A DNA stretch of 64,000 bases, from positions 17,708-81,707 of the forward strand of contig CAVVMQ010000007.1 of NCBI GenBank assembly GCA_963749295.1. The letters are read 5' to 3'. The position numbers and the translations under genes were made by a program. Below are positions 8,901-18,650 of the stretch, piece after piece. The stretch's first letter is position 1. The number at the start of each line of letters is the position of its first letter. The DNA is from an uncultured Acidobacteriaceae bacterium. Its GTDB lineage: Bacteria; Acidobacteriota; Terriglobia; Terriglobales; Acidobacteriaceae. The notes under the pieces were generated by a model. It was not told where the DNA came from, did not search any database, and saw only the letters and a program-made list of their open reading frames with translations.

Positions 8901-9038
8901 GATCTCGAGAAAAAACTGGTCGGAATGCGCGATCAACTCATCAACCTGACCATCAGCGCGAACGAGGATTCGCTCGCCTACCCGCCGCAGATCGACGCCA
9001 AGCTGGCCTTCCTTGCCATGAACGTGGGCAGCAGCTGA
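5919..9038 (+). CDS. BNR/Asp-box repeat (sortilin/VPS10-like) secreted protein; the last ~66 aa are encoded in the +1 frame (9034-9237)
   Basis: Signal peptide MIQIVWLPLLLAALTLWGQTAALAQ from the ATG at 5919. There are at least 10 Asp-boxes (STDGAMTW, SLDAGKTW, TVDGGKTW, SNDGGATW, SEDGGETW, TLDGGKNW, TTDGGVHW, TRDAGKNW, TSDYGQTW...). Confidence 0.8.
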   Translation: MIQIVWLPLLLAALTLWGQTAALAQTKPERQSKAAKAAESTPTKATNTDQKTTPEDESGKPEDKLFKGMKYRLIGPFRGGRSLTAAGIPGDPTTYYFGATGGGVWKSTDGAMTWSPIFDKEGTGSIGSLAVATSDHNIIYVGTGEACIRGNISQGDGVYKSLDAGKTWKNVGLGDTRAIGKIIINPDNPDIVFVAALGHPYGPNAERGVFRTVDGGKTWEKVLYKDDNTGGIDVAFDPRNPHILFAALWQARRTPWSLTDGGPGSGLYRSNDGGATWKRLEEHGLPKGPYGRIGVAVAANSDRVYALIEARNPDGGLYRSEDGGETWESVNSSHSLWQRPWYYMHIFADPKDENVVYILDVDAYKSTDGGHLFNKIKIPHGDNHGLWIDPKDPRRMIASNDGGVTVTLDGGKNWTREDNQPTAQFYHVTTDSAVPYRVYGAQQDSGTVAIVSRSDDGAIDRSDWYDVGGGEAGYIAPFPPDPNIVYAADYQGNITRFDKRIGQVRAITEQPVISDGNGAATLEHRFQWTAPVLISPHDPNTLYHGGERLFKTTDGGVHWQAMSPDLTRNDKSKQQASGGEITLDDTGTEYYDTIFAVAESPITKGLIWVGTDDGLIQITRDAGKNWANITPHNKALPDKDLPEFSRVSQVEASPHDAGTAYIAVDRHQNDDLRPYIFKTSDYGQTWTKLTNGIPEGSFVRAVREDPKKRGLLYAGTENGVYVSFNDGADWRALKLNLPTTPIHDLVVKGNDLVVATHGRAFWILDDVSPLRQFDDDVAKQDAHLYTPGPAYRIQAGEGGEQHPSKRTGQNPAAGALIYYYLKDAPKAPTEVKLEILDASGKLVRKYSSVETKRLDEPPDPDDKKPEKEIKPEAGLNHFVWDLRYEEAHRVPGYYLWEYGGGARGPVAVPGQYQVRLTVGGASQVAPLEVKLDPRVNVGQADLAQQFNMLMQIHEELNLVYDAVNQIQDVRSQVAGLKRRLPENASTKPIASSADDLEKKLVGMRDQLINLTISANEDSLAYPPQIDAKLAFLAMNVGSS

Positions 9039-9225
9039 CGCGGCTCCCACCGAAGCCGAGCAGTTGCAGTTTGAGAAAATGAGGCGGCAAGGCGGCGAGT
9101 TGCTTAGCCGCTGGCAGGACTTGCAGCGCCACGATCTGTCGGACTTCCGAAAGCTCACCGCCGACAGCAATCTTTCCACCGTGGTAGTTCCGCCGGCAGG
9201 TCGAGCCGGAGAGCCTGAAAATACG

Positions 9226-9764: not shown

Positions 9765-10352
9765 GTGCTGACACCTACCCCAAACCGCCTGAAGTTGGCT
9801 TTGCTGGTTTCAGCAATGTTTCTCTTGGCTCTGCCCTCGTGCCTTACCGCACAGGACGCGGATGAAGCTCCACTGGGAGACGTGGCGCGCAGTTTTCGCA
9901 AGAAACCGGCTGCGTCGGAAGTTGTCATCGATAACGACAATCTGTCGAAGGTAGTGGACGACGCTGAAAGCCGCCACGCGGCTGGCTCGTCACCAGTATT
10001 CTCGCTCGATCCCGCAGGCAAGAGTTTTCGCGTTTCATCTCCCGATGTGGTTTGCAGTCTTTCGTTCAGCTCCAAGACCAGTTCGCTGCTCTCCGATCCG
10101 CTGATGATGGACGAGTTGCCGCGCACCGAACTCGCGAAGCTGGACGGACCGGCAACGATTGACGGAGATTCGCTGCAGGTTTCGATGCACAACGGAACCG
10201 CGTGGGAACTGCGCGAGGTAGTGATCGGCCTGACCATCGTGAAACGCCTCGAGCCCGGAAGCGCAAGCAATTTTGGACAGGCACGGATTGTTCCCGCGGT
10301 CGCGAGTCGGTTCCCCGCAGCAAGCGCAGGACTCGCTCCAGAAGCAACCTGA
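9765..10352 (+). CDS. hypothetical secreted protein; start uncertain and the 3' end possibly frameshifted
   Basis: Starting at the GTG at 9765 gives signal peptide MLTPTPNRLKLALLVSAMFLLALPSCLTAQD. The composition is protein-like, unlike the Ser/Arg-rich antisense ORF 9626-10456. Downstream, the coding-like signal continues in other frames. Confidence 0.45.
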   Translation: MLTPTPNRLKLALLVSAMFLLALPSCLTAQDADEAPLGDVARSFRKKPAASEVVIDNDNLSKVVDDAESRHAAGSSPVFSLDPAGKSFRVSSPDVVCSLSFSSKTSSLLSDPLMMDELPRTELAKLDGPATIDGDSLQVSMHNGTAWELREVVIGLTIVKRLEPGSASNFGQARIVPAVASRFPAASAGLAPEAT

Positions 10353-10922
10353 CGTAACTCTGCTGTTGCGCGTAAAGGGATCGGCCGCTCCATCGACGAC
10401 CGCAATCTTTCGCACGTCTCTTGAATTTCGCTCTCTTTCCCGACCAGGATTGGCACTGGGCAATCGTCAAGGCCAAAGGGATTCCGCCTCAGACTTCGCC
10501 CGAGGCAACGATGACGCCCAACCCGGAGACCCGGACCAGCCTGCCGCTGCAGTACCCGACACGAACACGAACACCGCAGCGCCGACTCAGTCCCCGCCGA
10601 AAGAGCTCGTGTGGGTCGGACACTCTTGTTCCGACTGCCTTTGACCTTGATCTTGATTTCCGCCTGCAGCTGCCCAACTCATGTCGATCGACGCCGACGC
10701 GGCCGTCAGCGGAGCGAAGGGACGCGCGTAGTGGACGGAACCTGCTGTCCGTTGCCTTTGAAGATGATCCCGAACCCGCAGGTGTCACACCCATGCGCGT
10801 ACTTTGCGCAGCGCTGGGGACTTTGATTGGAGTTAGCCCTACTTAGGCACGACAGATTCAGCGGCGGAAATACATATTTAGCGCCATTGTCAACATCAAT
10901 AGTCTCGTGGAACTCACCCGCA

Positions 10923-12167: not shown

Positions 12168-12765
12168 AGGGGGACTCGCGTCTCCCCGCCTCTGTCGGCG
12201 CGTGATGTGGCGAATCGCTGTTTCCCGCTAGATCGGTGTAAGTGAAGCGGCCAGCGAGCACACGACGGGCGACGGTGGCGAAGCGGTCAGCATTGTAACT
12301 TACGGTCGGCGTCCTTGCGACGTAAGGAAGCCGCCCCTATGGAAGCTCCTAAAACCGCCATAGGATTTCCACAGGCCAACCCTGTGACATCTGACCTTGC
12401 GCACAGCCCACAATTCGTCGCATCATTGCCCAAGCAAAGGCAGTAGAGTCAGTTGCGCCACCCGAGAAGGAATCGGAACGCAACTCCTTTATCCCCAAGA
12501 TTTTACCCGTAAGTGATTGATTCCAATATATTATTTCGCGTTTTTCCGCTAACTCAAAGATTCCAATAGACCGAGGGGGGAGGGGGTAGCGGGTAGTAAA
12601 CTCCCTCCCCAAAAAAGAACCATCCACACGCCTTGACAGCACTCTTAATTGCTTTGTTCTTTCTGCTTTTTTCTCTGTGTCTCTATGGTGAAAGCTCTTT
12701 GTAAGGCGCTAATGCTGCCGTGCTAAACTGGCCTCAAATCCCACATCAAGGACAGGCGACAGGCG

Positions 12766-13464
12766 ATGAAATTTGGAGTCATCATCTTTCCCGGCTCGAA
12801 CTGCGATCACGATGCGTTCTGGACGATTCAGCAAGTCGCGCGGCAGCCCGTGACTTTTCTGTGGCATGAATCGCATGATCTGGAGAATTGCGATGCCATC
12901 ATCGTCCCCGGAGGGTTTGCCTTTGGCGACTACCTGCGCACTGGCGCGATTGCGAAGTTCTCTCCGGTGATGGAGTCGGTGCGCCGCTTTGCCGACGACG
13001 GCGGACTGGTGCTCGGAATCTGCAACGGTTTTCAGATCCTGTGCGAGGCAGGGCTTTTGCCGGGGGCGCTCATGCGCAACACCGGATTGAAATACGTCTG
13101 CAAGCCGGTGCAGGTGCGAGTGGAGAATGCTTCCACTCCTTTCACCAACGCCTGTTCGCAGGGAGAAGTGTTGACCATCCCCATCGGCCACATGGAAGGG
13201 AACTACTTCTGCGATCAGGCGACGTTGCACGAGTTGCATCGCGACAACCGCATCGTATTTCGCTATTCCACGCCGGCCGGTGAGATTTCGCCCTCCGCCA
13301 ATCCGAACGGTTCTCTGGACAACATCGCCGGCATCTGCAACGCGGGCGGCAACGTGGTCGGGATGATGCCTCATCCCGAACGGTCATCCGAACCCGCACT
13401 CGGCGGTACTGACGGGATGAAGGTTTTCCATTCCATGGTGGGGGCAGCAGTACCTAGTACCTAG
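12766..13464 (+). CDS. purQ: phosphoribosylformylglycinamidine synthase subunit PurQ (glutaminase)
   Basis: [16 protein letters not shown]..., nucleophile elbow GICNGFQIL, and MPHPER at the C-terminus. The stop codon lies inside the AGTACCT heptamer array. Confidence 0.95.
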
Positions 13465-13640
13465 TACCTAGTACCTGGTACCGAGTACCGAGACCTCGGG
13501 CTCGCGGCTGCTGCTCCTGTTCCAGGGAACAGCGCAAGACCAAGATTCCTCAGCCCCTCGCTTTCGCTCGGGGGTGGGAACGACAATGATTCGCGGAGAG
13601 TCGAGCACTGGGTGCTAGGTACTGGCTACTGGGTACTCAG
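13449..13640. repeat. heptamer-periodic inverted repeat (AGTACCT x7 left arm, GTACTGG-type x5 right arm) enclosing a REP-like core
   Basis: Left arm 13449-13497 and right arm 13605-13640. The interior contains cccctcgctttcgctcggggg, related to the arm sequence of the palindrome at 27.1 kb. Confidence 0.85.
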
Positions 13641-13777
13641 GCCGCGTTTTCCACTCCATGCACATAAATACTGTTTGATAATTTGCAAGCTTGGTGCTAG
13701 TGTCTCGCCGAAGCGGCTTCCTCCCTTCGCCCCCGGAACTAAAACGTGCATGCAAGTGCAAGGGAGGAGTGTGCCCG

Positions 13778-14368
13778 ATGACGGCGAAGCAGATTCTCGA
13801 TGCCTTTTCTGAAACGTTAATGCAGGATGAACGGATTCTCAGCCCGCGAGAGCGGGAGTTGTTGATGAGTCTCCTGCAAACCTCCAGGGCGGTCTCCAGC
13901 AGCAATCCAGAAACACAATCGGCGGTAAACGCAACCATAGCTCGCTCGGTGGGTGAAACCGTAGCGCAACGCGCTTTTGCGTTGTTAGGCGGCAGCATTG
14001 TGGAGCAGATCCTGGCTAGCTCGGGAATCCCTGCCGGGACAGAAGAGACGATGCCGGCCACGGTTCCGTTCGCTGGATCGCCGGGCGCCCCGCAGCCGCC
14101 ACAAGGGCCGGGGCCGCACGTCCGAACGCCGCAGCCTCCAGGAACGACTCCGGGTCCGGGCGCTCCGCAGCCTCCGCAAGGACCGGGGCCGCACATCAGC
14201 GCCTTCCGGCCATCAAGCGTACCTGTGCAATTCCTGTTCAACAAGGAGCACAGCAAAGCCACGCTGACTCAGGCAACGGCGTGGGAGTTTTGGATGCGCC
14301 CGCGATCGTGCGAGCGCAATGCGTTGTCCTGGACGAGTTCCTGGCGCCGCAAGAACTCGACGAACTGA
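13778..14368 (+). CDS. hypothetical protein with a helical N-terminus and a duplicated GAPQPPQGPGPH proline-rich repeat
   Basis: SD AGGGAGGAG (13761-13769) lies 8 nt before the ATG at 13778. Two 37-nt near-identical DNA repeats (14083-14119 and 14158-14194). The 3' end overlaps the next gene by 88 nt, so the true stop, or a fusion with the next gene, is uncertain. Confidence 0.55.
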   Translation: MTAKQILDAFSETLMQDERILSPRERELLMSLLQTSRAVSSSNPETQSAVNATIARSVGETVAQRAFALLGGSIVEQILASSGIPAGTEETMPATVPFAGSPGAPQPPQGPGPHVRTPQPPGTTPGPGAPQPPQGPGPHISAFRPSSVPVQFLFNKEHSKATLTQATAWEFWMRPRSCERNALSWTSSWRRKNSTN

Positions 14369-14937
14369 TTAGCTTTGCACTGCAGCAAGAGGCAGAGTTT
14401 GAAAGCAGCGGCGTAGTTTCGCCCAGCGGAGATCCAGGAGTAATCGATTACAACCATCGTCGCTCCCGGGTGCTGATGGATTTGGGAAAGCATGAGCAAG
14501 TCATGCTGGAGCGAATCCGCGGCGTGCTGCCTAGAGTGCTGGAGCAGCTGGGAATGGAAGAGTTTCCGGTCACGCGCGTGGAGGCTCAGATCACGGCCAG
14601 CAATGACGGCGACTTTTTCGGGGCGCACAGCGACGCTTCGCACGAACTGATTGCGTCTCGGCGCCTTACGTTCGTTTACTTTTTCCATCGCGCACCACGC
14701 CAGTTCGAAGGCGGGGAGTTGCGCTTGCACGATTCGCGAGGGAGCGAGCGGCCTGCCGGTTCGGGCAGTTATCAGACGGGCGGTTACCAGACGGGCGGTT
14801 ATCAAAGGATCGTGCCGCAGCAAAACCAAATCGTGTTTTTCCCGTGCTCGCTGTTGCACGAGATTACCCCAGTGGAATGCCCGTCGCGGGCTTTCGCTGA
14901 CAGCCGCTTCACCTTGAACGGATGGCTACACAACTAA
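14281..14937 (+). CDS. 2OG-Fe(II) oxygenase, prolyl-4-hydroxylase-like (PF13640-type)
   Basis: HxD in GAHSDAS, distal His in LLHEITPV, 2OG-binding Arg in SRFTLNGW, and the N-terminal VVLDEFLAPQELDELI motif typical of this family. Confidence 0.8.
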   Translation: MGVLDAPAIVRAQCVVLDEFLAPQELDELISFALQQEAEFESSGVVSPSGDPGVIDYNHRRSRVLMDLGKHEQVMLERIRGVLPRVLEQLGMEEFPVTRVEAQITASNDGDFFGAHSDASHELIASRRLTFVYFFHRAPRQFEGGELRLHDSRGSERPAGSGSYQTGGYQTGGYQRIVPQQNQIVFFPCSLLHEITPVECPSRAFADSRFTLNGWLHN

Positions 14938-15971
14938 GAGACACGGCATGGCTTGAATGGATCGCAGGCCTGATGGGGGTGGGGTCGCGGCAAACCCTTA
15001 CCGCGACGCTGCCCCCCGGGCAATTTCATTGCCTGCTCGACGAGTTGCCGTTGCACTTGATTCCGCAGCGGCAGCTTCAGTCACAATGCTGGTGGCTGAA
15101 CTTCTCTCCTCGGCAGTTGTTCTTCAATCCGCAGTGTTCGGTCCTGCCCGCGGGGCGGCTGCCGGCGGAACTCGAATCACATCCGCATTTAGTAAAACAT
15201 TTCAATTTGCAGGGAACTGTGGCTTGGGTGCGCGACCCGGCAAATGGTTCGCTGAATCCATTTTGGCTGGGTCCGCGCCTGGAAGCGGCGGTTGCGCGTA
15301 TTCGGGCAGGGGAATCTGTGCCCGCGTCCACTCCGGCAGACGTGTGCAGGTTGCTGGCTGGCGCCGGCATTCTGACTCCGGAGGGTCATGCCGAGCGGCG
15401 TCTCGCAGAGTGGGCGGAGATCGTCAGCAAAGGCTCCCCTTACTTTCGAGAAAACGGATACGTGCCTGTCGGGCGGTTGATTCACCCTTTCAATCTCGCG
15501 GCTCTACGCCGGTACTACCGGCATGCCATCCGGCGAAGGGCGATTCGACTCGGAGATGAGCAGAGTTCGCGGCGATACGTAGCCCACAATGAGGCTGTCG
15601 CACGCTTCTTCCATCACCAGATTGCGAACGCCGTCAGCGCCATTGTGGGAGAAGCGATCAAGCCGTCGTATGTTTATTTCGGGTCGTACTTGAGCGGCGC
15701 CGAACTGAAGAAGCATACCGATCGGCAACAGTGTGAGTTCAGCGTTACGTTATGTTTGGATTTTTCTCCCGAACCGGAGCTGGCAACATCGTGGCCCATA
15801 CTTCTGGATACTCCGGAAGGCACGGTCAAGGTTTATCAGGCGCTGGGCGATGGCCTGGTCTACCGCGGAACGAAGGTTCCTCATTACCGGCATGTGCTGG
15901 CCGAAGGACTTAATTCGACATCCATTTTCTTTCATTACGTGCCGGCGGATTTCGCGGGTTCGTTGGAATGA
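14922..15971 (+). CDS. hypothetical protein with a C-terminal HxD...H double-stranded beta-helix (dioxygenase-like) domain
   Basis: The ATG at 14922 overlaps the upstream stop (ATGGCTACACAACTAA). KKHTDRQQ (HxD), PHYRH (distal His) and TSIFFHYV are present. The N-terminal ~210 aa have no recognisable motif. Confidence 0.7.
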   Translation: MATQLRDTAWLEWIAGLMGVGSRQTLTATLPPGQFHCLLDELPLHLIPQRQLQSQCWWLNFSPRQLFFNPQCSVLPAGRLPAELESHPHLVKHFNLQGTVAWVRDPANGSLNPFWLGPRLEAAVARIRAGESVPASTPADVCRLLAGAGILTPEGHAERRLAEWAEIVSKGSPYFRENGYVPVGRLIHPFNLAALRRYYRHAIRRRAIRLGDEQSSRRYVAHNEAVARFFHHQIANAVSAIVGEAIKPSYVYFGSYLSGAELKKHTDRQQCEFSVTLCLDFSPEPELATSWPILLDTPEGTVKVYQALGDGLVYRGTKVPHYRHVLAEGLNSTSIFFHYVPADFAGSLE

Positions 15972-16008
15972 GTAGAGCTGGTCCGTGGCGAAAGTACGGC
16001 CCGGAAAG

Positions 16009-16076
16009 CCAGCGCCTAAAGGCGCGTTCACAGTGGTGCGTTTGCGGCACGCATGAATGCGTGCCCTGATACGAGG
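16009..16076 (-). repeat. double-hairpin REP-like element (tcgtatcagggc family), inverted copy
   Basis: The reverse complement reads ctcgtatcagggcacgcattcatgcgtgccgcaaacgcacc...gcgcctttaggcgctggc, the same architecture as the copies at 35289 and 37894. Confidence 0.7.
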
Positions 16077-16093
16077 CTTGCTTGCACGGGCTG

Positions 16094-18650
16094 CTAGTGT
16101 AAGCCCGAGATCAAATAGAGAACGGAGGAAACCTGGTAGTAGCTGTAGGCGAAGCGCGAAGCGTCGCGAGTCACTACCACGGGAGCTATGTTGACCACGC
16201 CTACGGTGGTGTCGGGCTGCAACTCCTTAAGGAGAGTTTTATCGCCGGAAACGAGGTTTACCTTGTACACACTGGTTGGAACCTGGCCGGGAAGATATCC
16301 ATAGACAGAAGAACCGTCTTCTGACCACTGGACTGGAATAAAACTGGGTTCAAGGCCGGGTATGGGACGGGGAGTGCCAGCGCCGGCAGAAGTAGGATAG
16401 ACCGCGATTCCTCTCGCATGGTCGACATGAAGAATGTACTGGCCGTCAGGTGAAATTAAGCTGCCCGTCATGCCTTCCGGCGTAATCGGCGTTGGTTTGC
16501 CTCCGTCTAAGCTCACAAGATAGGTGCGCACAGCGTGGCCGGGTTCGTTGGCGTTGAGTGTGATGTGCTTTCCGTCTCCCAGGAAATGAGCAACACCATT
16601 GTCAATGTGCTCAAGGCCGGTTATGGCGATCGCGCGGGCTTGACCGGGACCGAGGGGGACGAGCGTCACCCGGCCTGGGGTTCCCGGGGAAATGGAAATC
16701 GCCCATTTGCCGTCGGGGGAAAGCTTACCGGCGCTTCCTACGCCCAGTTGCACGGGCGGCGTTCCGTCGATTTTGCGGATGACGAGTGAATAGTTGGCCC
16801 CCGCCGCTTCGCTGGAATCCTCAAACAAGACTGACTGTCCATCCGGCGAAATGTCCTTGGCAAGGTTCCAATCGTGCCAGGAAAGATCCACGTTCTTGCC
16901 GTCCCGAGCGGTTGTGGCCAGGGCAAGACGTTCGGAATCCAGGCTCACCAATACTCTGCCGTCCGGCGCCATATCTTCCAAGGTCATGCCCGTGGGCAAG
17001 GCGAGGATCTTGCGAAGCCGTCCGGAAAGATTGACTGCCATTAGTTCGCGGTTGAGACCCTTTCCGGCGCCTGTAAACCAGATTTCTTTCCCATCGGGAC
17101 TCCAGGTCAGGCCGTCCTCAGACTCCCACTCGGTCGAAAGCACAGTGACGTGTCCGCCGAGGTCCACGAAAGAAAGGTGCCCGCGGTCATCCCACGGTGC
17201 AGAGTGGTCCATAAAGGCAATTTTGTCTCCTTGAGGAGAAAACCGAAGATGGCTGATCCAGCCGCTGTTTTGGTATAGGGCATGGCCAATCGGATACTCA
17301 ATTTGATCACGGCCCTGGGTATGGTGGACCACCGCTAGTTCACCGTTTGCATCCCAGTCTGCCCATCGAACATCTTCGAGGACCTCTCGGGGAGAACCTC
17401 CGGCAAGGGGTGTGCGGGCGAGCATGCCTCCTTCTGTCTCGAGGTGCGCCCCCCGGTGACTCCCGTGGAGAGCAACCGCGAGTTCGCCAGTGCGAGACAT
17501 CGCGAGCAGCTTTGCATCCGCGAGGTTTAGTGGCTGACTCAACAGGGAATCGCCGACGGTTGAGAAGAGCTGCAGCGGCTTGCCATTCCATGCCGCACCG
17601 TAAACGATCGACCGAAAGTCGGGCGAGAAGCGCGCCGAATACACTGTGCCTGCTTCATAGGTTAAACGCCGATAAGAGGGAGTTTGGCTGCGCTGTTGCC
17701 ACACATTGCCCAGTAGGAGCAATGTTGCAACCAGAAAAACTGCCGCTCACCGCCCATGGAACGATTTTCGTTTGCTGCCTGGGGGGCCTTAGACGGATTG
17801 GGCCAGAAGCGTTGGCCAGAGTATCCAGCGCAAACGCCAGATCGCGTGCCGATTGAAAGCGATTCTCCGGTTCCTTCTCCAGGCAGTGGCGCACAATTTG
17901 CTGAAACGCTACTGGAACGCTGGCCTGCTCGAGATTGATTTCCGGAGGATTCTCGAGCAGCACTGCGGTCATGGTGTCGACCTCGGTTTCGCCCCGAAAG
18001 GCCCGGCGCGCGGTCAACATTTCGTAGAGAATCGCGCCCACGCTGAAGATGTCGCTGCGGTGGTCCACGGCCTTGGCCCGCAGTTGCTCGGGTGACATAT
18101 AGGCGACGGTGCCGACGACAACGCCGCTCCGGGTCACCGTGGTCAGATCCTCAACGGAACGTCCGGATTCCCCCGGCGCAGGTTGCAGTTTTGCCACTCC
18201 GAAGTCGAGAATCTTCACCCGGCCTTCGGTCGTTACGAACAGGTTTTCAGGTTTCAGATCCCGATGAACGATGCGGCGATCATGCGCCGCGATCAGGCCC
18301 TGGACGATTTGCAGCGCGTAGTCGAGGGCGAGACGAACTGGCAGGGGTCCTTCTGCCAGGCGTTTGCGCAGGGTCTTGCCTTGGAGCAATTCGCAAACGA
18401 TATAGGGAGATCCGTCGGCAAAGCCCACGTCGTAAATGGCTACGATATTGGGATGATTGAGCGCGGCCGCGGCGCGGGCTTCCTGTTCGAAGCGGCGGAG
18501 ATGGTCGGGATTTTCGCTGGAAGCCGGCCGGATCATCTTCAGGGCTACGTCGCGCCCCAGCCTTTCATCGCGCGCGCGAAAGACTTCGCCCATGGCTCCG
18601 GAGCCAATTTTTTCGATAATCCGGTAATGACCTATGACCTTGCCAGTCAT
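16094..18650 (-). pseudogene. Ser/Thr protein kinase with a TM segment and a C-terminal TolB-like beta-propeller, frameshifted at ~17747 as sequenced
   Basis: Fragments 17655-18650 (kinase: GSGAMGEVF, HRDLKPEN, DFG, SPE) and 16094-17722 (WD40-like propeller). Removing one base at 17747 yields WAVAAVFLVATLLLLGNVWQQ, a TM helix joining the two. Confidence 0.85.

What the first reader, a model, noticed from the sequence alone, without database searches (positions are those of the whole stretch)
13778..15971. Proline-rich repeat protein coupled to two HxD...H dioxygenase-like genes
Three same-strand genes overlap: by 88 nt at 14281-14368, and by 16 nt (ATGGCTACACAACTAA) at 14922-14937. Gene 1 has a strong SD, a helical N-terminus, and two near-identical 37-nt DNA repeats 75 nt apart (14083-14119 and 14158-14194) that encode GAPQPPQGPGPH twice. 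Gene 2 has the full P4H/PF13640-type signature (GAHSDAS, LLHEITPV, SRFTLNGW). Gene 3 carries a second HTD...H..H beta-helix-like domain behind an unassigned ~210-aa N-terminal domain. Bacterial P4H-type enzymes hydroxylate Pro in Pro/Gly-rich repeats, so gene 1 could be a dedicated substrate of one or both oxygenases; this is inference. An alternative is that genes 1 and 2 form one protein with a Pro-rich linker, because this sequence is rich in single-base frameshifts.
Basis: partly seen in the sequence, partly recalled or inferred. Interest (0 to 1): 0.7.

Follow-up and report, generated by a model that had tools for sequence, protein, structure and literature searches.

The report
Paired prolyl-hydroxylase-like genes, one frameshifted
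What looked like three overlapping genes is really two: a hydroxylase gene with a built-in proline-rich repeat, broken here by a one-base deletion, and a second, unannotated hydroxylase-like gene that always sits beside it in soil Acidobacteria.

Summary
More than 100 homologues (365-460 aa) cover an artificial gene1+gene2 fusion end to end. In 75 of 78 species genomes both halves share a frame. A 99%-identical contig (L168) has an intact 386-aa gene, and the window lacks one C after 14230. Neighbouring genes carry similar frame breaks, so a sequence error is most likely.

The real unit is a two-gene operon, translationally coupled by a conserved 16-nt overlap.
- Protein 1: a conserved N-domain, a PxPP-repeat linker and a P4H/PHD-type 2OG oxygenase (PF13640).
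- Protein 2 (gene 3): no Pfam or NCBIfam match. It models (pLDDT 93) as an unassigned N-domain plus a PHD-like double-stranded beta-helix with an invariant HxD...H triad. The best structural match is Pseudomonas prolyl hydroxylase PPHD.

Its family (about 2,800 clusters) lies next to a PF13640 oxygenase in 156 of 157 assessable loci. In other lineages it is joined to hydroxyproline-arabinosyltransferase-like, GT8 or sulfotransferase modules.

Protein prolyl hydroxylation is inferred. The substrate is unknown, and self-modification of the tethered repeats is speculative.

The parts
13762..13769 (+). Shine-Dalgarno-like GGGAGGAG, 8 nt upstream of the ATG at 13778
   Evidence: Read directly from the sequence. 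The same sequence is present in the 98-99% identical contigs L001 and L168.
13778..14937 (+). One gene ('gene 1' + 'gene 2') for a 386-aa protein: conserved N-domain, Pro-rich PxPP linker and P4H/PHD-type 2OG-Fe(II) oxygenase. In this window a 1-nt deletion breaks the frame.
   Evidence: More than 100 homologues of 365-460 aa cover an artificial fusion at 100% (alignment A1). The N and C parts share a frame in 75 of 78 species genomes. L168 has an intact 386-aa gene. Restoring one C gives an ORF that differs from it at 3 residues.
14230..14231 (+). Frameshift site: one C is missing between these two bases (window CAA-TTCCTG, L168 CAACTTCCTG). Upstream the gene reads in frame 2, downstream in frame 1.
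   Evidence: DNA alignment to L168, 99.0% identity over 6 kb. Corrected translation. Frame-1 translation ...PVQQGAQQSHADSGNGVGVLDAP matches the homologues.
13778..14032 (+). Conserved N-terminal domain (residues 1-85) with no Pfam, NCBIfam or PDB sequence match
   Evidence: Nearly invariant in A1. Still detectable at 32-47% identity in distant orthologues. No family hits.
14033..14290 (+). Pro-rich linker carrying PQPP/PxPP short repeats. Its length and repeat number vary between orthologues.
   Evidence: In 88 homologues the linker is 79-175 aa, 27% Pro, with 0-9 PQPP motifs. More distant orthologues carry related repeats: GPRPPQP, SPEPPSP, PRPPSPSPPG, (GPGPKSG)n.
14081..14122 (+). Repeat copy 1, encoding GAPQPPQGPGPH
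14156..14197 (+). Repeat copy 2, encoding GAPQPPQGPGPH. It differs from copy 1 by 4 synonymous and 0 non-synonymous changes in the 12 codons.
14587..14934 (+). PF13640 (2OG-FeII_Oxy_3) core. Fe ligands are His 14626-14628, Asp 14632-14634 and His 14857-14859. The 2OG-binding Arg is at 14905-14907 (H284, D286, H361, R377 of the corrected protein).
   Evidence: Pfam E = 1.3e-16, 61.7 bits against a cut-off of 27. All four residues are invariant in A1. Best PDB sequence match is DdPhyA 6t8m, E = 1.6e-7.
14762..14806 (+). Three tandem 15-nt units encoding (YQTGG)n in a surface loop of the oxygenase domain. Copy number varies between strains.
   Evidence: L001 has one unit fewer. The region is variable in A1.
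14922..15971 (+). Gene 3: 349-aa protein with an unassigned alpha/beta N-domain (about residues 30-153) and a divergent PHD/P4H-like DSBH oxygenase domain (about residues 155-349). Its start codon overlaps the upstream stop by 16 nt.
   Evidence: AlphaFold2 model, pLDDT 93, pTM 0.90. Foldseek top hit PPHD 4iw3_A, E = 1.2e-9; 628 PDB matches at E <= 0.001, and all of the top 50 listed are 2OG oxygenases. The ATG is conserved in 63 of 63 loci and the 17-aa N-extension shows coding-type variation.
15714..15890 (+). Predicted metal-binding residues of gene 3: His265 (15714-15716), Asp267 (15720-15722), His321 (15882-15884), plus invariant Arg323 (15888-15890)
   Evidence: H265, H321 and R323 are invariant in a 51-member alignment at 30-62% identity, and D267 is conserved in at least 90%. 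D is invariant in A5 and A6.

Best explanation
The locus is a two-gene operon of an Acidobacteriaceae / Ca. Sulfotelmatobacter-like bacterium, not three genes.

Gene A (13778-14937) encodes one 386-aa cytoplasmic protein. It has a conserved 85-aa N-domain, an 80-170-aa Pro-rich linker made of PxPP short repeats, and a P4H/PHD-type Fe(II)/2-oxoglutarate oxygenase domain. In this window gene A is split into two overlapping ORFs because one C is missing after 14230. This is most probably a sequencing or assembly error.

Gene B (14922-15971) starts 16 nt before gene A's stop, so the two are translationally coupled. It encodes a second, very divergent PHD-like oxygenase with an intact HxD...H triad behind an unassigned N-domain.

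Inferred mechanism: the two proteins act together, probably as a complex or in sequence, as protein prolyl hydroxylases using Fe(II), 2OG and O2. The target is a Pro-rich (polyproline-II-like) sequence. The most economical candidate is the PxPP repeat array tethered to gene A's own catalytic domain, but another cellular protein is about equally possible.

Shown: gene structure, the frameshift, folds, conserved catalytic residues and conserved pairing.
Inferred: catalytic activity, prolyl specificity, cooperation between the two proteins and the substrate.
For: One gene:
- More than 100 homologues at 100% coverage of the fusion, some named 2OG-Fe(II) oxygenase of Ca. Sulfotelmatobacter (alignment).
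- Same frame in 75 of 78 GTDB species genomes.
- L168 (99.0% identity) has an intact 386-aa gene, and the window lacks one C.

Error rather than biology:
- tblastn shows frame changes in 6 of about 14 neighbouring genes.
- The breaks inspected at DNA level are 1-nt indels at non-homopolymer sites.
- The adjacent kinase is broken here and intact in L168.

Gene A is an oxygenase: PF13640 E = 1.3e-16, H/D/H/R invariant, DdPhyA best PDB match.

Gene B is an oxygenase:
- Model pLDDT 93.
- Foldseek hits PPHD, DdPhyA and PHD2 at E = 1e-9 to 1e-7.
- H265, H321 and R323 invariant, D267 conserved in at least 90%.
- Sub-threshold Pfam 2OG-oxygenase hits in family members.

Coupling: the overlapping ATG is present in 63 of 63 loci, and the N-extension is under coding constraint.

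Pairing: a PF13640 gene is adjacent in 80 of 80 genome loci and in 76 of 77 assessable metagenome loci.

Prolyl / hydroxyl-decorating context in the gene B family:
- Hydroxyproline O-arabinosyltransferase-like gene (PF23452, above its cut-off) between the two oxygenases in 5 loci.
- FkbM methyltransferase in L140.
- Fusions to GT8 and Sulfotransfer_3.

Repeats are constrained:
- 4 synonymous and 0 non-synonymous differences between the two copies.
- The PQPP core is kept while spacers vary.
- This gene holds the only open stretch of 80 or more codons in the 64-kb window with at least 2 P[QREK]PP motifs.
Against: - There is no biochemical evidence for activity, specificity or substrate.
- Gene B has no basic residue at the canonical 2OG-binding position about 9-10 residues after the distal His (that stretch reads STS). 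R323 at +2 and R268 are only candidates.
- Foldseek matches to small-molecule oxygenases (SnoN/SnoK, HalD, EctD, free-proline hydroxylase H11) score nearly as well as the protein prolyl hydroxylases.
- The repeat motif drifts in distant orthologues, for example (GPGPKSG)n without PxPP in L099.
- The most distant PF13640 partners lack both the N-domain and the linker, so self-modification cannot be the general function of the pair.
- Reads were not available, so a real strain-specific frameshift cannot be excluded.
Confidence: 0.6

Rival explanations
1. One reading: three separate genes, with gene 1 a stand-alone Pro-rich substrate protein for one or both oxygenases.
For: ORF geometry in this window: a strong SD before gene 1 and a GTG at 14281 for gene 2.
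Against: - Homologues are single 365-460-aa proteins covering both parts.
- 75 of 78 genomes have the two parts in one frame.
- The 99%-identical L168 has one gene.
- The last 46 codons of 'gene 1' (FLFNKEHSKATLTQATAWEFW...) match nothing in the homologues, whereas the other frame does.
- No SD lies at a usable distance before GTG 14281.
Confidence: 0.03
2. The frameshift is real: a strain-specific pseudogene or a slippage-prone on/off switch. It sits right next to a 12-nt LPVQ duplication polymorphism.
For: - The break lies inside a short imperfect tandem duplication (CCTGTGCAA / CTTCCTGTTCAA) that is polymorphic between near-identical contigs L001 and L168.
- Reads could not be inspected.
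Against: - Six of about 14 nearby genes carry frame breaks, including the adjacent kinase, which is intact in L168.
- The missing base is not in a homopolymer or a simple repeat tract.
- The junction sequence was not found in JGI metagenome contigs.
- Gene B downstream is intact and identical to that of L168.
Confidence: 0.07
3. The Pro-rich segment is only a flexible polyproline-II spacer or docking arm. The pair hydroxylates another protein, for example a translation factor or ribosomal protein (as PPHD and Tpa1/OGFOD1 do), or the convergently encoded Ser/Thr kinase that stays next to the pair.
For: - The closest structures act on folded proteins: PPHD on EF-Tu, DdPhyA on Skp1 (PMC7864055).
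- Distant partner oxygenases lack the linker.
- The repeat sequence drifts between orthologues.
- The 850-aa kinase with a beta-propeller is convergent downstream in nearly all acidobacterial-type loci. This holds even where purQ is absent and the oxygenase order differs (L097, L113).
Against: - The repeat peptide is under purifying selection (4 synonymous, 0 non-synonymous changes).
- A PxPP core persists down to about 50% identity, which is more than a pure spacer needs.
- There is no direct evidence for any external substrate.
Confidence: 0.3
4. One or both enzymes act on a small molecule (a free amino acid or metabolite) rather than on a protein.
For: Foldseek hits for gene B include SnoN/SnoK, HalD/HalB, BesD-like hydroxylase, EctD and free-proline hydroxylase H11 at E = 1e-8 to 1e-7. 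One family member has a weak Pfam HalD hit.
Against: - The top hits are protein prolyl hydroxylases.
- Gene A is of the PF13640/PF13661 P4H/Tpa1 type.
- A hydroxyproline-arabinosyltransferase-like neighbour occurs in related loci.
- No biosynthetic or transport genes are conserved around the pair.
Confidence: 0.1

Closest known systems
Pseudomonas putida PPHD, a prolyl-4-hydroxylase acting on EF-Tu (PDB 4iw3, 4j25), and the PHD/EGLN group, including Dictyostelium PhyA acting on Skp1 (6t8m)
   Same: - These are the best structural matches to gene B (E = 1.2e-9, TM-score 0.69-0.74 on the target).
- DdPhyA is the best PDB sequence match to gene A's catalytic domain (E = 1.6e-7).
- All share the cytoplasmic single-DSBH Fe(II)/2OG fold with an HxD...H triad.
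   Different: - PPHD and PhyA are single enzymes acting on a folded protein (PMC7864055).
- Here two different PHD-like proteins are always encoded together.
- One carries an N-domain plus a PxPP repeat array. The other has a 150-aa unassigned N-domain and no Arg at the canonical 2OG position.
- Gene B has 10-16% identity to the PHDs and no sequence-level match.
Tpa1p / Ofd1 / OGFOD1 ribosomal uS12 prolyl hydroxylases (tandem DSBH)
   Same: - Two DSBH modules work as one unit.
- Gene A also matches PF13661, and JGI names its homologues 'Tpa1-like'.
   Different: - In Tpa1/OGFOD1 both DSBH domains are in one chain and the C-terminal one has no metal site. That subfamily is described as eukaryote-only and as the only 2OG oxygenases with tandem DSBH domains (PMC4396695).
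- Here there are two polypeptides, both with intact triads, in bacteria.
- No Tpa1 entry is among the top 50 Foldseek hits for gene B.
Collagen-type, plant, algal and viral prolyl 4-hydroxylases that act on Pro-rich polyproline-II repeats (own knowledge: C-P4H, Chlamydomonas P4H-1, PBCV-1 P4H, Bacillus anthracis P4H)
   Same: - PF13640-type catalytic domain.
- A Pro-rich repeat sequence (PxPP) is at hand as a plausible substrate.
- C-P4H alpha likewise has N-terminal non-catalytic domains ahead of the catalytic domain (PMC9676403 abstract).
   Different: - In those systems the repeats are in separate substrate proteins. Here they are in the same polypeptide as the enzyme.
- There is no PDI-like partner and no signal peptide.
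- The obligatory partner is a second oxygenase.
Hydroxyproline-then-glycosylation pathways (plant HPAT, PF23452; Skp1 PhyA followed by glycosyltransferases)
   Same: In related loci the gene B homologue is followed by an HPAT-like glycosyltransferase and a PF13640 oxygenase. Other family members are fused to GT8 or sulfotransferase domains. This is the logic of hydroxylating and then decorating the hydroxyl group.
   Different: - The window's own operon has no transferase.
- The HPAT match is partial (profile positions 95-221 of 307) and only about 1 bit above the cut-off.
- No bacterial example is described in the literature searched.

Membership tests
Pfam PF13640 2OG-FeII_Oxy_3 (P4H-type 2OG oxygenase): gene A C-domain | Profile match above the curated gathering score | tested here: met
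   61.7 bits against a cut-off of 27, E = 1.3e-16, profile positions 2-98 of 98. PF13661 also matches at 39.8 bits.
Pfam PF13640 2OG-FeII_Oxy_3 (P4H-type 2OG oxygenase): gene A C-domain | HxD...H iron triad and a basic 2OG-binding residue (RxS/T) after the distal His | tested here: met
   H283, D285, H360 and R376 (numbering of the artificial 385-aa fusion query; H284, D286, H361, R377 in the corrected 386-aa protein) are invariant in 19 sequences at 70-94% identity.
Protein prolyl hydroxylase (PHD / PPHD / PhyA type): gene A and gene B | Hydroxylation of a peptidyl proline, dependent on Fe(II), 2OG and O2 | not testable with these tools
   Only fold and sequence resemblance is available. It needs an enzyme assay or mass spectrometry.
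2OG/Fe(II) oxygenase superfamily (DSBH fold): gene B | Double-stranded beta-helix fold | tested here: met
   AlphaFold2 pLDDT 93, pTM 0.90 with a 51-sequence diverse alignment. Foldseek finds 628 PDB matches at E <= 0.001, and all of the top 50 listed are 2OG oxygenases.
2OG/Fe(II) oxygenase superfamily (DSBH fold): gene B | Conserved 2-His-1-carboxylate facial triad | tested here: met
   H265 and H321 are invariant and D267 is conserved in at least 90% at 30-62% identity. D is invariant in A5 and A6.
2OG/Fe(II) oxygenase superfamily (DSBH fold): gene B | Basic residue (Arg/Lys) about 9-10 residues after the distal His that binds the 2OG C5 carboxylate | tested here: inconclusive
   That position holds conserved S/T residues (STS, 332-334). 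Invariant R323 (+2 from H321) and near-invariant R268 are alternative candidates. Model coordinates could not be inspected.
2OG/Fe(II) oxygenase superfamily (DSBH fold): gene B | Match to a curated sequence family (Pfam or NCBIfam) | tested here: not met
   No family matched at E <= 1 for the window protein. Among 51 relatives only sub-threshold hits appear: 2OG-FeII_Oxy_2 in 5 members (best E = 0.0049) and Oxy_3 in 1 member (5.4e-4). No PDB sequence hit. hhalign against gene A gives probability 0.5%.
Tpa1/OGFOD1-type tandem-DSBH prolyl hydroxylase | Two DSBH domains in one polypeptide, with the second lacking a metal site | tested here: not met
   There are two separate polypeptides, with a stop at 14935-14937 and a new start at 14922. 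Both have intact triads. The definition is from PMC4396695.
RiPP-type system (leader peptide plus an enzyme carrying an RRE, the RiPP recognition element) | PqqD-like RRE domain and a short precursor peptide gene | tested here: not met
   No PqqD/RRE Pfam hit in gene B or in 51 relatives. Only a weak TglHI Foldseek hit, and that came from the discarded low-confidence model. The Pro-rich 'peptide' is part of a 386-aa enzyme.

The most novel reading that the evidence does not exclude
Acidobacteria, and related lineages that add HPAT-like, GT8, FkbM or sulfotransferase modules, may possess a bacterial 'hydroxyproline-rich protein' system. In it two distinct prolyl hydroxylases form an obligatory pair. 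One belongs to a fold-only-recognisable family of about 2,800 sequence clusters. In the acidobacterial version the pair modifies a PxPP repeat array tethered to the enzyme itself, for example by 4- and 3-hydroxylation in cis or in trans within an oligomer. This would be a self-modifying, possibly O2-reporting protein. It would also be a split, fully catalytic prokaryotic counterpart of the eukaryote-only tandem-DSBH Tpa1/OGFOD1 enzymes.
Probability: 0.15. Interest if true: 0.75.

Novelty: new variant of a known kind. Interest (0 to 1): 0.45.

Why it matters
As originally framed, a dedicated substrate gene next to its hydroxylases, the finding rests on an artefact, and that is worth knowing. 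A single-base error created a false gene, and the window holds several more such errors.

What lies underneath is still useful.
- Gene B represents a large protein family (2,846 clusters at 50% identity) with no Pfam or NCBIfam model. It can now be assigned, by a confident model and invariant residues, to the PHD/P4H-like 2OG oxygenases.
- It is almost always encoded next to a classical P4H-type oxygenase. Prokaryotic prolyl hydroxylases are regarded as single-domain, single-protein enzymes (PMC4396695), so an obligatory pair would be a new arrangement.
- The enzyme-tethered PxPP repeats, together with the hydroxyproline-arabinosyltransferase-like, GT8 and sulfotransferase associations in sister lineages, give a directly testable hypothesis for protein hydroxyproline formation, and its further decoration, in abundant soil bacteria.

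Tried and rejected
1. The first AlphaFold2 run of gene 3 used 99 close homologues (75-89% identity). The motif-bearing C-terminal part came out at pLDDT < 35, and Foldseek found nothing. I replaced it with a run on a 51-member alignment at 30-62% identity.
2. An early reading of the frame break as an 11-nt insertion relative to L001 was superseded. L168 shows it is a 12-nt in-frame polymorphism minus one base.
3. By eye, gene 3's N-domain looked like a PqqD/RRE peptide-binding domain. No tool supports this, so I dropped it.
4. Profile-profile comparison of gene 3 with gene A found no detectable similarity.
5. PDB sequence searches with gene 3 profiles gave nothing significant.
6. An exact search for the window's junction sequence in JGI metagenome contigs gave 0 hits.
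7. Alignment A5 was too diverse for the search for related loci, so I used a 12-member alignment instead.
8. Rfam and promoter/terminator scans of 12500-16500 and 13300-16300 showed nothing above chance.
9. Literature searches for this architecture, for bacterial HPAT homologues or for prolyl hydroxylase plus glycosyltransferase clusters returned nothing relevant.
Full report
**1. Observation**

The + strand holds three ORFs: 13691/13778-14368, 14281-14937 and 14922-15971. They overlap by 88 nt and by 16 nt. GGGAGGAG lies 8 nt upstream of ATG 13778.

A 42-nt direct repeat (14081-14122 and 14156-14197) is 88% identical, with copies 75 nt apart. Both copies encode GAPQPPQGPGPH. The two 12-codon copies differ by four synonymous and no non-synonymous changes.

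ORF 2 matches PF13640 (E = 1.3e-16, 61.7 bits against a cut-off of 27) and PF13661. ORFs 1 and 3 match nothing in Pfam or NCBIfam.

**2. Genes 1 and 2 are one gene**

I joined the ORF-1 frame to the ORF-2 frame and searched with the 385-aa product. All 120 hits listed were 365-460 aa, and more than 100 of them covered the query at 100%, with up to 93% identity. Several are named 2OG-Fe(II) oxygenase of Candidatus Sulfotelmatobacter.

In the alignment the homologues read ...RPSSVPVQQGAQQSHADSGNGVGVLDAP.... The window gives ...RPSSVPVQ in frame 2 and PVQQGAQQSHADSGNGVGVLDAP in frame 1. The last 46 codons of 'gene 1' have no counterpart in any homologue.

In 80 loci from different GTDB species the oxygenase domain lies directly upstream of gene 3 in all 80. 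Its N-domain shares its frame in 75 of 78 (the other 2 are cut by contig ends).

**3. The break is a single missing base, probably an error**

A Logan contig (L001, 98% identical) has an intact 377-aa gene. Relative to it the window appeared to carry an 11-nt insertion.

An ENA contig (L168, 183 kb, 99.0% identical over window 12464-18472) resolves this.
- L168 reads CCTGTGCAACTTCCTGTTCAACAAGG, an in-frame 12-nt LPVQ duplication.
- The window reads CCTGTGCAA-TTCCTGTTCAACAAGG.

Restoring one C after 14230 gives a 386-aa ORF that differs from the L168 protein at three residues.

The adjacent 851-aa kinase is intact in L168 and carries a 1-nt insertion near 17747 in the window. tblastn with proteins of related genomes shows frame changes in 6 of about 14 genes between 9 and 23 kb. 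The breaks inspected at DNA level are 1-nt indels at non-homopolymer sites.

The junction sequence is absent from JGI metagenome contigs. Reads were not available, so a real mutation is not excluded. An error is far more likely.

**4. Protein A**

- Residues 1-85 are nearly invariant among orthologues and have no known family.
- The linker is 79-175 aa and 27% Pro. It carries 0-9 PQPP motifs, while the spacers and repeat number vary.
- At 50-60% identity the repeats become GPRPPQP, SPEPPSP, PRPPSPSPPG or GPQPPSP. In one lineage they become (GPGPKSG)n.
- The catalytic domain keeps H, D, H and R invariant. Its closest PDB sequence is the Skp1 prolyl hydroxylase DdPhyA, 6t8m (E = 1.6e-7; identity of the entry confirmed in PMC7864055).
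- A (YQTGG)n loop encoded by 15-nt tandem units varies in copy number.
- No other open stretch of 80 or more codons in the 64-kb window has two or more P[QREK]PP motifs.

**5. Protein B (gene 3)**

The ATG that overlaps gene A's stop is present in 63 of 63 loci. The 17-residue extension MA[TS][QP]x[KR]DxAWLEWIAGL varies mostly at third codon positions (0.24, against 0.11 and 0.05 at positions 1 and 2). The 349-aa start and the 16-nt overlap are therefore real and imply translational coupling.

The family is large.
- 334 species genomes carry a relative. The 80 loci fetched are almost all labelled Acidobacteriota, with single contigs labelled Verrucomicrobiia and Ca. Aquilonibacter.
- 2,846 clusters at 50% identity match at E <= 1e-3.
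- Members down to 30% identity align over residues 33-349.

Across 51 diverse members Y256, L262, H265, W291, G309, G316, H321 and R323 are invariant. D267, R268 and Q270 are nearly so.

Structure prediction went in two steps.
- A shallow alignment failed to model the C-terminal half.
- The diverse alignment gave pLDDT 93 and pTM 0.90.

Foldseek then matched Pseudomonas PPHD (4iw3_A, E = 1.2e-9, TM-score 0.69-0.74). It also matched SnoN/SnoK, HalD, DdPhyA and PHD2. In total 628 PDB entries matched at E <= 0.001.

The oxygenase fold occupies about residues 155-349. Residues 30-153 form a confident but unassigned alpha/beta domain.

At sequence level the family is an orphan.
- There are no Pfam, NCBIfam or PDB hits for the window protein.
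- Only sub-threshold 2OG-oxygenase hits appear in a few relatives.
- It shows no profile similarity to protein A.

The canonical Arg about 10 residues after the distal His is replaced by S/T. R323 or R268 may take over its role.

**6. The pair is the conserved unit**

Orthologues at 48% identity keep the order purQ, gene A, gene B and then a convergent Ser/Thr kinase with a PD40/Tricorn propeller, although the outer flanks are rearranged.

In 80 metagenome loci found with distant gene B relatives (41-79% identity to the window), the picture is as follows.
- 71 have a PF13640 gene detectable by tblastn, usually abutting upstream and sometimes just downstream.
- Five more have a divergent PF13640 gene convergent two genes downstream.
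- Three are cut at the contig edge.
- One (L118) has none within its 6.2-kb contig.

Together this makes 156 of 157 assessable loci. The most distant PF13640 partners (246-285 aa) lack the N-domain and the linker. The two oxygenases are therefore the core, and the N-domain with its repeats is an acidobacterial addition.

The kinase stays adjacent even where purQ is absent (L097, L113).

**7. Clues from variants**

- In L097, L113, L121, L158 and L160 the gene between the two oxygenases matches PF23452, the hydroxyproline O-arabinosyltransferase family. L121 and L158 score 24.9-25.1 bits against a cut-off of 23.9; L097 is weaker.
- In L140 an FkbM-type methyltransferase sits there. In L125 there is a weak GT-D-like match.
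- Some family members are fused to Sulfotransfer_3 or to GT8 domains.

All of these enzymes act on hydroxyl groups. One belongs to a family known for acting on hydroxyproline.

**8. Mechanism**

Shown: the gene structure, the coupling, both folds, the conserved metal ligands and the near-universal pairing.

Inferred: both proteins are active Fe(II)/2OG oxygenases that cooperate in protein prolyl hydroxylation.

The substrate is unknown.
- The tethered PxPP repeats are under purifying selection and keep a PxPP core. That makes self-modification, in cis or within an oligomer, an economical hypothesis.
- Against it, the motif drifts, and distant pairs lack the linker altogether.

An external protein substrate is about as likely. 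Candidates are a translation factor, as for PPHD and Tpa1, or the neighbouring kinase. A small-molecule substrate is less likely but not excluded.

**9. Comparison with known systems**

The pair works most like the PHD/PPHD/PhyA protein prolyl hydroxylases and the P4Hs that act on Pro-rich repeats.

It differs in three ways. It is an obligatory pair of two different DSBH proteins. The repeat array is in the enzyme's own chain. The second partner is recognisable only by fold.

Tpa1/OGFOD1 are described as the only 2OG oxygenases with tandem DSBH domains, as eukaryote-only, and as having a metal-free second domain. Prokaryotic prolyl hydroxylases are described as single-domain (PMC4396695). The present pair is a split, doubly catalytic bacterial arrangement and does not meet that family's definition.

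No description of this system was found in the literature searched.

**10. Verdict**

The three-gene, dedicated-substrate reading is an artefact of a one-base deletion. Underneath is a conserved, undescribed pairing of two prolyl-hydroxylase-like oxygenases. This is a new variant of a known kind, of moderate interest, and easy to test.

Noticed in passing
window about 9030-9046, 10288-10421, about 10936, about 17747, about 22640: Frame changes inside otherwise conserved genes: a BNR/sortilin-like protein, two hypothetical proteins, the Ser/Thr kinase (split into 16094-17722 and 17655-18650) and an Orn/DAP decarboxylase. Where checked they are 1-nt indels at non-homopolymer sites. The window looks like an unpolished or error-bearing assembly, so any 'overlapping gene pair' in it deserves suspicion.
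   Followed up: partly
window 16094-18650 (- strand): An 850-aa Ser/Thr protein kinase with a PD40/Tricorn_N beta-propeller lies convergent to gene 3. It stays there in nearly all acidobacterial-type loci, at down to 45% identity, even where purQ is absent and the oxygenase order differs (L097, L113). This may be a functional link (substrate or regulator) or just strong synteny.
   Followed up: partly
L097:6938-7786, L121:5791-6645, L158:6926-7780 (also L113, L160): A 283-285-aa gene between a gene-3 homologue and a PF13640 oxygenase matches the plant hydroxyproline O-arabinosyltransferase family (PF23452). L121 and L158 score 24.9-25.1 bits against a cut-off of 23.9; L097 is weaker at 17.3 bits. 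This may be a bacterial hydroxyproline-glycosylation cassette.
   Followed up: partly
proteins P0352, P0388, P0326 (Sulfotransfer_3) and P0269, P0370 (Glyco_transf_8); L140:6914-7636 (FkbM methyltransferase): Members of the gene-3 family are fused to, or flanked by, enzymes that decorate hydroxyl groups: sulfotransferase, GT8 glycosyltransferase and an O-methyltransferase-type domain.
   Followed up: no
window 14762-14806: Three tandem 15-nt units encode (YQTGG)n in a loop of the oxygenase domain. The 98%-identical contig L001 has one unit fewer, and L168 has the same number as the window. This is strain-level copy-number variation.
   Followed up: partly
window 14219-14242: A 12-nt in-frame duplication (LPVQ) is present in the window and in L168 but absent from L001. 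The window's missing base lies inside it.
   Followed up: yes
window 16046-16065: An 8-bp GC-rich hairpin (GGCACGCA-TGAA-TGCGTGCC) sits in the 122-nt gap between the convergent gene 3 and kinase genes. It may be a bidirectional terminator, but it has no T-run and the consensus scan did not call it.
   Followed up: no
L086:7045-9655: The orthologous kinase is also split into two ORFs (607 + 264 aa) in another long ENA contig. This suggests that similar indel errors occur in related public assemblies.
   Followed up: no
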